From: Carcharhinus longimanus
Taxonomy: Eukaryota
Direction of reading: 5' to 3'
Assembly: GCA_030264375.1 (NCBI GenBank)
Contig: JASCQW010000001.1
Coordinates: 93,219,771-93,283,770 of the forward strand
DNA: 64,000 nucleotides
Part shown: in pieces, positions 45,001-48,000 of the stretch
Layout of the letters: each line of letters starts with the position of its first letter
Position numbering within the stretch: the stretch's first letter is position 1
Program-made: the position numbers

Positions 45001-48000
45001 GCTAGAGCCAATACTGGCACAGTTATTAACACTTGCCAACAGACAGCCAAATGACTTTTTCCCCTTTCCTTTTTTCTAATGTTCATGTGCAACCAACAAC
45101 CCTTCTCCCATGAGTGTACCTTCTTTCTTCCAGCTCAAGAGACGTGGGCCTACTGCCTGAAGCTATTTTCTAAATGTATTCTACAGTTCTTTGTTTCACT
45201 GCCAAAGTGTAGATGAGAAAGACTAAGTCTGTATGTGTGCAGTAGTGGGCTTGCTGTGCCAACTTACAACTCTGCAGTGTACTGAGGGATATGATCAGGA
45301 ATTTTCGTAAGCCTTTGATTGGAGCAGTCCACAGTGGTTCCCTCGCATCGACATTTTTCAGGGCAAGCAAGGTCCAGGAAGCAGTCTCCACTGAGTTTGG
45401 ATCTGTAATCCTCTGTGCCTGCAGATTATTTGAGTCAAAATATGCAGATTACTCAAGTCGGCAAACAGAAAAACAGGTATTTTAACAGGAAAAGTAATAC
45501 TATGTAAAGAGAGTCAATTAACACGCAAGAAAAATAGGTCGATTTTTAAGACCATACAGAAAGCAAAATTTCAAGAAATTATAATACTGTACCTAGATCT
45601 TGAACTAGATCACAGTAAAGATAAGTCCCAAAAGAGTACAGGTAACATTTACAAGCTGACCTTTTAATGCAGGCTCCTTCTGTTGCAATTTCTACTACAA
45701 AGCTAACTGCCTTCTCACACTCCTGTAGCTAGCTCATAATGTTGCTAAGCTTTATCTAATTCAATTTAGTGCTCCCACCTGAGCCATTTGTTTGAAATAG
45801 TGAGTGGAATTCAAAAAGACTGAATACTTCCAGGCCAATTGGAACACATCTGGTACAGTCATTACATTTGTTCTTTCACTTGCTTTTTCCTACATCAATC
45901 TTTGCTTGTCTTTTTATCCACTTTTCTTTATGAGAAAATTCAATCAGCCATGGCCTCAATACAAATGTCATAAGATTGGTTTCTAGCTCTGAAAGCCTCT
46001 GTCTGCAGAACTACCATCCTGAGCTTTGTTGGTCTTCAATCAGAGAATAAGGATATACTGCCTCTGTCTAAGATAGTTCTATTGTCTCTCACTTGGCATG
46101 CTGTAGAAGGCATACGTGACGCTCCATGGTGCTTGACAGAACCATGTTTTATTCGTACCTTGCAACCACATGGTTAGATCAAGCACAACGGAAAATCCCG
46201 CTCAGTTTCAGAACCGCATCAGCTAGGCCAGGTAAAGGTGTGAGGGAAGATAGTAGAAGAAAGAAGGCAAAGCATTCTACTGGAAGAGGTAGAGAATGTA
46301 GTAGTGGGGAGCTGGGATACAACAGCATTAGTATAAACAAGGGTAACATTGTTTTCACAAACAGTTAATGTACAACAGAACGACTACTGTGAATGATATG
46401 CTGAACACAAGCAATACACATGCCTACATGAAAGAATAGCTCTTTCTCAATCGGATATTGCTCAAATTCAGTATCTGACGTCACTAGCCAACTAGGCATT
46501 ACTGAAAACCTGATATGTTGGGGCACACGAAGGTATGGAGAAGGGTGGGGAGGAGAAATTTGGGATCGAATGTTGGATGGCTTCTTACAGGCTGCCAACA
46601 GGTTGAGTGTGAGGCATTAAATGTATCAGGATAAAGGAAAATAATAGTCGTGGGGGTGTGGTTTGGGAGGGGTGGGAGAGAAGGGTAGAGTGTGTTGGAC
46701 CAGATCTGAAAGAGGGGCAAGTGAACGTGGGCAGAGGTTAAGTATCAGGTAGCACACAAATTTGTACTTACAGCCAAAATGGTGAATTCCTGCAAAAAGT
46801 AAAGAAGCACAGAAGGAAAAGAGAGACAGAGCGATTGCATTTATATTCAGGAAAGCAAAGAAAGCAGCCAATCCACTTGTGCTAAGACGGCAGAGCATTA
46901 GCTTTTAATTAGGTTAAATAAACTAAGTTGTTTATGGGATAATCTCGACTATCAGATTGTACCCAAATAGCGCACAATGCTTTGGAGATTCAGCAGACAA
47001 CAAACCTAACTCCCCAGGAAGAATTACACATTGTCATTGTACTAAACCCCCTTTTAATTATTCAATCAATATGCTGAACACATTGAACTATAGGCTTGAT
47101 TTTGTCTTCTTGATAGGATTGGTTCTCCAACCTACTGGTTGGAAACCCAATGGGAAACCTGTGGGGAGGGTGGGGCATGTCCAAATTTAAGTGTCAGTCC
47201 TTCACTGGCAGTTAGGATCTTGGTGATGGATGTCCAGCCACTGAGAACTGCCAATCAGTTAGAGGCAGGCAGCTTTCCATAGCCCGCCAACACCACTGGG
47301 AGTGGCTGCTGTCAGTAATGTACCCACCAGAGAGGTCTAGGATCACTGAGGGACCCAGACCACAGGTGAGCGAGGCAGGTTGGAGGTCACAGAGGGGAGA
47401 TCCTGGTAAAGAGCGTGTGGGGGGAGGGGCAGGAAAGGTTTGGATTAATGAGCAAGGAGTCAGTGGACACTCCCTTTACCAATGATGCGTTCTTCGATTG
47501 TGGTATAAAGGTTTTGAAAGAGGGACTCCCTGGGGGGCTGCTGGCAATCCAACAGGGGGGTTTGCTGGGCGATCTTCAGGAGGTGAATACTAATAAAGGT
47601 GAACCACTGAGCCACTACAAAGTCTTGGCAGAATGAGAGACAATGGTCTTTAAGTGGCTCGTTAATAGGCTTAACTAGCCAGCGGTCAGGTTCCCAGGAT
47701 CAGCCCCCTCCTCACCACTGAATTAATGGACATCAGTTTTCCTGCTGGCAGGAATGAGATGTGTGGCCTATCCCACAGTTATGAGAGCCATCCACCTATC
47801 CACTCTGCTGGCTCCGTTAAATCTGCCTCAATGATGATGTTCAAAATAAAACTAAGTGTTTAGATAATGAAGGGAACTATAAGGAAATTTGTGAAAAATA
47901 TTTGAATTTACCCAAGGCCTACAGCATGTAATTATTCCATTTAATTTATTGGATACAGATATTTAACAAATACTGTCCATTTAGAATCCATTCCTTACAC

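What the first reader, a model, noticed from the sequence alone, without database searches (positions are those of the whole stretch)
46772..46789. Second, 18-nt microexon in the SLIT2 D2-D3 linker that would add a cysteine
Seen: on the gene strand, a roughly 40-nt pyrimidine tract containing UGC ends in ttttgcag, followed by GAATTCACCATTTTGGCT and gtaagt. The 18 nt are phase 1-1 like the host intron and contain no stop. Inclusion gives ...AKEQYFIP-GIHHFG-C-TEDYRSK, changing exon 16's first Gly to Cys. Known: the canonical human SLIT2 sequence, as I recall it, lacks this peptide; neural microexons regulated by SRRM3/4 typically have UGC near the 3' splice site. Inference: with exon 15 this gives up to four linker isoforms next to the Robo- and heparin-binding D2 domain, and the extra Cys could form a disulfide or covalent dimer. 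It may already appear in predicted isoforms of other vertebrates; I cannot check.
Basis: partly seen in the sequence, partly recalled or inferred. Interest (0 to 1): 0.75.

Follow-up and report, generated by a model that had tools for sequence, protein, structure and literature searches.

The report
Conserved 18-nt SLIT2 linker microexon
The 18-base block is a genuine small coding exon of a shark SLIT2 gene that adds six residues and a cysteine between two receptor-binding domains; other vertebrates' gene models already carry it, but no paper found here describes it.

Summary
On the minus strand, window 46789..46772 reads cag|GAATTCACCATTTTGGCT|gtaagt. It lies in the 6134-nt intron between SLIT2 exon 15 (51576..51553, AKEQYFIP) and exon 16 (45418..45268).

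It is more than chance. A strict splice-site filter hits only two places in both strands of the window. One is this block; the other starts at a real exon's acceptor.

The decisive evidence is in named protein records. A Pristiophorus japonicus SLIT2 isoform X1 carries exactly ...AKEQYFIPGIHHFGCTEDYR... (P0117). The window's other exons are 89-100% identical to that protein. Eight of 163 SLIT2 models examined carry the insert: GVHHFGC (blue jay), GVHHGGC (rattlesnake), GIHHLGC (two frogs), GIHHINKC (zebrafish), GVHHVGC (stickleback, two models). His-His and the junction Cys are present in all eight.

So this is a real microexon conserved across jawed vertebrates and already in predicted isoforms. 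Six literature searches found no description of it.

Untested: tissue pattern, SRRM3/4 control (UGC at -5 and -20), and the role of the extra cysteine. The window is not human.

The parts
46772..46789 (-). 18-nt alternative coding microexon of SLIT2 ('exon 15b'), phase 1-1. It encodes (G)IHHFG and supplies the T of a junction Cys codon.
   Evidence: Sequence; translation IHHFG. The identical peptide GIHHFGC sits at the same junction in P0117. Variants occur in 7 further models.
46790..46832 (-). 3' splice site: CAG preceded by a 40-nt tract with 34 pyrimidines. UGC at -5 (46794..46792) and -20 (46809..46807); UCUCUC at about -37..-32. No AG for 86 nt upstream.
46766..46771 (-). 5' splice site GTAAGT, 6 of 6 matches to GTRAGT. 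The exonic side (GCT) is non-consensus.
51553..51576 (-). SLIT2 exon 15, the known 24-nt alternative exon (AKEQYFIP), phase 1-1. It is preceded by a (TC)n-rich tract.
   Evidence: AKEQYFIP is present in or absent from database models. Exon 15 variants in human and mouse: PMC6406468 (passages read).
51922..52085 (-). SLIT2 exon 14, the C-terminal cap of LRR domain D2, ending ...KKFRCS plus the first base G of the next codon.
   Evidence: 54 of 54 residues align to chain 2V9S_A (human SLIT2 D2), positions 158-211, E 6.9e-34.
45268..45418 (-). SLIT2 exon 16. It starts with GC (Gly with a preceding G, Cys with a preceding T), then [22 protein letters not shown]..., which is the linker Cys and the N-terminal cap of D3.
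   Evidence: 96% identical to P0117 residues 502-551. The solved D3 chain 2V70_A begins only at LACPEKC.

Best explanation
Window 46789..46772 (minus strand) is a genuine, evolutionarily old, frame-preserving alternative microexon of an elasmobranch SLIT2 gene. It lies between the known 24-nt exon 15 and exon 16.

When spliced in, it inserts Ile-His-His-Phe-Gly after the junction Gly and converts the next Gly into Cys. The flexible D2-D3 linker then reads ...FIPGIHHFGCTEDY.... Exon 15 and this exon are both multiples of three in the same phase. They can therefore be used independently, giving four linker lengths.

Shown here: the sequence, the splice signals, the frame, and the presence of the same insert in named models of seven other species with His-His and Cys kept.

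Inferred, not shown:
(a) Inclusion is regulated. The likeliest site is neural tissue, through the SRRM3/4 route that recognises UGC close to the 3' splice site.
(b) The insert acts by adding an eleventh, unpaired cysteine and two histidines about 12 residues before the linker cysteine (GDCF) that normally tethers the linker. This would allow an intermolecular disulfide, a re-paired linker disulfide or a metal site, and so change the D2-D3 geometry next to the Robo- and heparan-sulfate-binding D2.
For: Sequence and splice signals.

Rarity: only 2 strict hits in both strands of 64 kb, both tied to exons, and a single hit in intron 15. The site is not repeat-derived.

Gene identity: the window's exons match P0117 residues 385-993 at 89-100%. 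Exons 14 and 16 match the solved human SLIT2 D2 and D3 chains.

Cross-species models:
- P0117 reads KKFRCSAKEQYFIPGIHHFGCTEDYRAK.
- P0121 Cyanocitta cristata GVHHFGC, P0076 Engystomops pustulosus GIHHLGC, P0052 Pyxicephalus adspersus GIHHLGC, P0066 Danio rerio X15 GIHHINKC, P0116 and P0126 Gasterosteus aculeatus GTEPGVHHVGC without exon 15.
- P0156 Crotalus horridus GVHHGGC.
- In total 8 of 163 models examined, carrying NCBI, UniRef, nr or EukProt source labels.

Cysteine count: P0117 has 10 Cys per LRR domain unit (linker Cys, 4 in the N-cap, 1 in an LRR, 4 in the C-cap). Cys501 from the microexon is an extra one.

[quoted passage not shown] Linker length matters functionally: the exon 15 variants behave differently (PMC6406468). 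UGC just upstream is enriched at nSR100-dependent microexons (PMC4387716).

Structure: the AlphaFold2 model of P0117 residues 266-735 has pLDDT below 50 across model residues 222-252, which contain the insert, consistent with a flexible linker.
Against: No transcript or junction read from the window's own species was available, so inclusion in this animal is inferred from a related shark's model.

Database 'X' isoforms and third-party models are predictions. I could not see what evidence each rests on, and some pipelines project proteins across species.

Only 8 of 163 models carry the insert. The three Callorhinchus milii models seen (P0122-P0124) and all seven mammalian models seen lack it.

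At least two UGC within 32 nt occur at 8% of all AG sites and 13% of pyrimidine-rich YAG sites in the window. The motif is therefore weak evidence for SRRM3/4.

The structure model gives no confident position for the new Cys, so nothing here shows a disulfide, a dimer or a metal site.

One salmon model (P0125) has a different six-residue insert, IVIATS, without Cys at the same junction.
Confidence: 0.9

Rival explanations
1. Chance pseudo-exon: an intronic AG...GT pair with good consensus that is never spliced into mRNA.
For: All three frames of the 18-mer are open, so openness means little. Looser filters give 5-7 open 3n blocks in the same intron. No transcript data exist for this species.
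Against: The identical peptide sits at the identical junction in a named sawshark model. Variants with His-His and Cys kept occur in bird, snake, frog and teleost models. An unselected intronic 18-mer would not be recognisable across these lineages. No non-exonic site in the window passes the strict filter.
Confidence: 0.03
2. The exon is genuine and conserved, but in sharks it is constitutive, or included broadly outside the nervous system. It would then be an ordinary part of the shark protein and not a regulated neural microexon.
For: The sawshark record that carries it is labelled isoform X1. The splice sites are strong: 34/40 pyrimidines and GTAAGT. No expression data were available.
Against: Skipping forms dominate the models of every other lineage seen, including three Callorhinchus milii models. 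The label 'isoform X1' implies further isoforms. The neighbouring exon 15 is alternative in mammals (PMC6406468). A long AG-free zone with UGC beside the 3' splice site is the layout reported for regulated microexons (PMC4387716).
Confidence: 0.12
3. Annotation echo: the exon models in other species stem from protein-projection pipelines copying one another, not from independent transcripts. The apparent breadth of support would then be inflated.
For: Several carriers are imperfect models: P0052 has a wrong upstream part and P0156 lacks LRR exons.
Against: Projection can place an exon only if the genome holds a matching open block with splice sites at that spot. The peptides differ between species (F/L/G/V at position 5, a 7-residue zebrafish form, a 9-residue stickleback form). 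So each reflects its own genome, and the sequence conservation stands in any case.
Confidence: 0.05

Closest known systems
Predicted SLIT2 isoform X1 of Pristiophorus japonicus (P0117, UniRef/NCBI record), plus inclusion models of Cyanocitta cristata, Crotalus horridus, Engystomops pustulosus, Pyxicephalus adspersus, Danio rerio (X15) and Gasterosteus aculeatus
   Same: Same gene and same junction between exon 15 (or 14) and exon 16. The peptide is identical in the sawshark (GIHHFGC) and near-identical in the others, with the junction Cys kept in 8 of 8.
   Different: These are protein predictions in other species. The window supplies the genomic exon with its splice signals in a different elasmobranch: exon 16 differs from P0117 at 2 of 50 residues. 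The zebrafish form has 7 and the stickleback form 9 inserted residues.
SLIT2 exon 15 (24 nt, AKEQYFIP): Slit2-WT versus Slit2-deltaE15
   Same: The neighbouring microexon in the same linker, with the same phase, frame-preserving and alternative (PMC6406468, passages read). It shows that linker variants change SLIT2 activity.
   Different: It adds no cysteine and has no UGC close to its 3' splice site. It is described in papers, whereas the 18-nt exon was not found in any paper searched.
nSR100/SRRM4-dependent Slit2 microexon that adds nine residues to the fifth EGF domain (called exon 28b in a NOVA2 table)
   Same: A regulated neural microexon in the same gene, in the secreted N-terminal fragment (PMC4387716; PMC12221596).
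   Different: A different place in the protein, EGF5 and not the D2-D3 linker, and outside this window, which ends at about residue 993 of P0117. Its SRRM4 dependence is measured; that of the 18-nt exon is not.
Robo1/Robo2 microexon 6b (NOVA-regulated)
   Same: A conserved microexon in the receptor of the same pathway that tunes repulsion strength (PMC12308364, passages read; PMC6687390, listing and start of abstract only).
   Different: A different gene and a different regulator. No functional data exist for the SLIT2 linker exon.

Membership tests
SLIT2 orthologue (vertebrate Slit guidance ligand 2) | Exons encode the LRR domains D2-D4 and EGF repeats in SLIT2 order with high identity to named SLIT2 proteins | tested here: met
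   tblastn of P0117 against the window gives collinear minus-strand matches for residues 385-993 at 89-100% identity. The best database hits are all SLIT2 records. D2 and D3 match PDB chains 2V9S and 2V70.
Frame-preserving alternative microexon (27 nt or less) | Length 3-27 nt, flanked by AG and GT, a multiple of three, no in-frame stop | tested here: met
   18 nt, cag|...|gtaagt, phase 1-1, IHHFG in frame.
Frame-preserving alternative microexon (27 nt or less) | Present in transcripts or gene models and conserved between species | tested here: met
   8 of 163 named SLIT2 models from 7 species carry G[IV]HH..C at the junction. These are gene models only; no reads were seen.
Frame-preserving alternative microexon (27 nt or less) | Both inclusion and skipping occur in the same species | not testable with these tools
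   Inclusion and skipping are seen across species. No RNA-seq is available for the window's species.
SRRM3/4 (eMIC)-dependent neural microexon | UGC motif within the last nucleotides upstream of the 3' splice site, in or after a UC-rich pyrimidine tract | tested here: met
   UGC at -5 and -20, UCUC at -37/-35, 34/40 pyrimidines. Background: at least two UGC in 8% of AG sites and 13% of pyrimidine-rich YAG sites. The enrichment is as described in PMC4387716.
SRRM3/4 (eMIC)-dependent neural microexon | Neural-enriched inclusion that falls when SRRM3/4 is lost | not testable with these tools
   No expression or knock-out data are at hand. The only SRRM4-dependent Slit2 microexon found in papers is the EGF5 one.

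The most novel reading that the evidence does not exclude
The microexon is an ancient switch of jawed vertebrates. It places an unpaired cysteine and a His-His pair into the disulfide-tethered D2-D3 linker. This would yield a SLIT2-N isoform that dimerises covalently, re-pairs the linker disulfide or binds a metal, and so signals differently through Robo and heparan sulfate. It may have been lost, or simply remain unannotated, in mammals, which would explain why it has escaped study.
Probability: 0.2. Interest if true: 0.6.

Novelty: already known. Interest (0 to 1): 0.33.

Why it matters
SLIT2 is a central axon-guidance and angiogenesis cue. The D2 domain beside this linker binds Robo, and the neighbouring exon 15 variants already differ in activity (PMC6406468).

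A second linker microexon, kept from sharks to birds and always adding a cysteine, means the known isoform set is incomplete in the literature. It points to a simple, testable biochemical difference: an odd cysteine.

As a genome-scan result it is mainly a confirmation. The exon is real but already sits in public predicted isoforms. What this work adds is the genomic anatomy in this species, the cross-species pattern, and the observation that no paper found here treats it.

Tried and rejected
1. Chance pseudo-exon: rejected on the strict-filter counts and the cross-species peptides.

2. Repeat-derived exon: rejected. The 600 bases around the block have no second copy in the window.

3. Structure of D2-linker-D3: the AlphaFold2 model of P0117 residues 266-735 with a 31-row alignment had mean pLDDT 74.2 and pTM 0.48. 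The linker (model residues 222-252) was below 50. It says only that the linker is not confidently ordered, and nothing about the partner of the new Cys. No fold search was run on it.

Isoform content of the 103-member P0117 cluster and of the large bird cluster (P0134, 3453 members) stayed unseen. The absence of the insert from mammalian models is therefore not evidence of loss.

No intron alignment could be made.

6. Primary structural papers: Morlot 2007 by DOI and Howitt 2004 by PMC id are not held. The disulfide-tethered linker rests on a secondary citation.

7. Literature: six searches and passages of five papers gave no description of this exon. Supplementary tables of microexon papers are closed and may list it.

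8. Joined spliced model: no model of the window's exons was built or searched. Exon 16 alone and exon 14 alone were used. The junction was probed with the named database protein P0117.

9. Human sequence was not looked up. The window is not human: exon 16 differs from the human D3 chain 2V70_A.

Full report
**What is in the sequence**

Read on the minus strand, window 46789..46772 is GAATTCACCATTTTGGCT. It is preceded by ...gctctgtctctcttttccttctgtgcttctttactttttgcag and followed by gtaagtac.
- The 40 bases before the CAG hold 34 pyrimidines.
- UGC lies at -5 and -20, and UCUC at -37/-35.
- The nearest upstream AG is 86 nt away.
- The donor matches GTRAGT at 6 of 6 positions.
- The in-frame codons translate to IHHFG (table 11 reads these codons as the standard code does).

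- Exon 14 ends ...KKFRCS plus a G at 51922.
- The 24-nt exon 15 (AKEQYFIP plus a G) is 51576..51553.
- Exon 16 begins GC-ACA-GAG... ([13 protein letters not shown]...) at 45418.

A preceding G therefore gives Gly. The exon's last T, with the GC of exon 16, gives Cys. The two sub-introns are 4763 and 1353 nt. The window has nine N runs (887 N). None is near the site and none was filled.

**Is it more than chance?**

The filter required at least 16 of 20 pyrimidines at -23..-4, YAG, and a 6/6 GTRAGT donor 3-51 nt downstream. It gives two hits on the minus strand and none on the plus strand of the whole window. One hit is this block. The other (29756..29707) starts at the true acceptor of the D3 LRRCT exon and ends at a GTGAGT inside that exon. 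No non-exonic place in about 128 kb passes.

Within intron 15 the block remains the only open, 3n candidate down to 14/20 pyrimidines with a 5/6 donor. Looser settings give 5-7.

All three frames of the 18-mer are open, so openness adds little. The surrounding 600 bases have no other copy in the window.

**What gene**

tblastn of a named sawshark SLIT2 protein (P0117) against the window gives collinear minus-strand matches for residues 385-993 at 89-100% identity. Exon 14 aligns over 54 of 54 residues to the C-terminal cap of the solved human SLIT2 D2 chain (2V9S_A 158-211, E 6.9e-34). Exon 16 aligns to the start of the solved D3 chain (2V70_A, which begins only at LACPEKC).

The window is thus an elasmobranch-like SLIT2 locus, and the block lies in the D2-D3 linker, which no solved chain covers. 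It is not human: exon 16 differs from the human chain.

**The decisive evidence**

Searches went exon by exon.

Exon 16 alone, searched against longer proteins, returned 294 SLIT2-type proteins, of which the best 120 were listed. Reading the linker in those 120 showed five with an insert:
- P0076, Engystomops pustulosus X1: GIHHLGC.
- P0052, Pyxicephalus adspersus: GIHHLGC.
- P0066, Danio rerio X15: GIHHINKC.
- P0116, Gasterosteus aculeatus: GTEPGVHHVGC, without exon 15.

A second search used residues 477-516 of the named record P0117. It added P0121 (Cyanocitta cristata, GVHHFGC) and P0126 (a second stickleback model). The same query against shorter proteins added P0156 (Crotalus horridus, GVHHGGC).

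In all, 8 of 163 models examined, from 7 species, carry the insert. One further hit, P0158, has no name and only a read-assembly source; it was left unexamined.

The leading Gly, the His-His pair and the junction Cys are present in 8 of 8. One salmon model (P0125) has a different insert, IVIATS, at the same junction.

The three Callorhinchus milii models, one lamprey model and all seven mammalian models seen lack the insert. This absence is therefore not evidence of loss.

**How it most likely works**

Shown: the exon can be included with or without exon 15, because both are 3n in phase 1. All four linker forms occur among database models.

Inferred from cysteine counting: in P0117 each LRR domain unit has ten cysteines. 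These are one in the preceding linker, four in the N-cap, one in an LRR and four in the C-cap (positions). The microexon's Cys501 is an eleventh, 12 residues before the linker Cys513. A structural paper states that the Slit2 LRR domains are tethered by disulfide-bonded linker regions (PMC5807052, citing Howitt 2004; passage read). An odd cysteine here could do one of three things:
- form an intermolecular disulfide;
- compete for the linker cysteine's partner;
- build a metal site together with the two histidines.

An AlphaFold2 model of P0117 residues 266-735 had mean pLDDT 74.2 and pTM 0.48. It folds both LRR domains but leaves model residues 222-252, which contain the insert, below pLDDT 50. 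This fits a flexible linker and gives no information on pairing.

Linker variants can matter. The exon 15 forms Slit2-WT and Slit2-deltaE15 differ in their effects on tumour growth and vessels, and their ratio differs between lung and brain (PMC6406468, passages read).

**Regulation**

UGC motifs directly upstream are strongly enriched at nSR100/SRRM4-dependent microexons (PMC4387716, passages read). This exon has UGC at -5 and -20 behind a UC-rich tract. However, at least two UGC within 32 nt occur at 8% of all AG sites and 13% of pyrimidine-rich YAG sites in the window. The layout is compatible with SRRM3/4 control and does not demonstrate it.

The Slit2 microexon reported as strongly nSR100-dependent is a different one. 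It adds nine residues to the fifth EGF domain, is listed as exon 28b in a NOVA2 table, and lies outside this window.

**Novelty**

The exon is already present in public predicted isoforms, including one with the identical peptide, so I file it as already known at the level of annotation.

Six full-text searches and passages of five papers, including a 2025 Slit-Robo review that mentions only Robo isoforms, gave no description of it.

What this work adds is the genomic anatomy, the cross-species pattern (His-His and Cys invariant in shark, bird, snake, frog and teleost models) and a concrete biochemical hypothesis.

**Verdict**

- Observation: confirmed.
The SRRM3/4 and disulfide ideas remain untested.
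- Confidence that this is a genuine conserved coding microexon: 0.9.
- Interest: modest (0.33), because it confirms existing annotation. The open question of what the conserved extra cysteine does keeps some value.

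Noticed in passing
window 51553..51576 (-) and upstream to about 51640: The known 24-nt SLIT2 exon 15 (AKEQYFIP) is preceded by a long (TC)n-rich tract and has no UGC near its 3' splice site. Exon 14's donor is followed by a (TA)n run.
   Followed up: partly
window 50285..50431, with related copies at 2958..3019, 16840..17031, 30960..31022; also 50176..50266 with copies at 59023..58938 and 15115..15030: Intron 15 holds a 147-bp stretch that matches its own reverse complement at 91%. 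It also has short relatives elsewhere in the window, which looks like a small dispersed repeat family.
   Followed up: no
several introns, e.g. 40414..40223, 19597..19406, 14077..13910, 5061..4903, 4327..3914 (-): Recurrent open stretches encode similar peptides (...TVVSTAASQ[RH]QGP[GE]F[ND]S...). This suggests a repeated interspersed element present in many copies.
   Followed up: no
window 3..371 (-): An open stretch reads ...LLFVIFINDLDEEVVGWVDKFADDTKVGG..., which resembles a reverse-transcriptase fragment of a retroelement. That label is from recall and was not tested.
   Followed up: no
window 29707..29756 (-): The D3 LRRCT exon contains an internal GTGAGT 50 nt after its acceptor. It was the only other hit of the strict splice filter. 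Using it as a donor would shift the frame.
   Followed up: partly
database proteins P0125, P0116/P0126, P0066: An Oncorhynchus tshawytscha model has a different six-residue insert (IVIATS, no Cys) at the same junction. The stickleback models have a 9-residue form (TEPGVHHVG) and the zebrafish model a 7-residue form (IHHINKC).
   Followed up: no
window, nine N runs (1777..1786, 2071..2170, 3997..4096, 8694..8703, 9495..9733, 22005..22048, 36301..36310, 41545..41644, 57612..57885): 887 N in total, left as they are. None touches the exons discussed.
   Followed up: no
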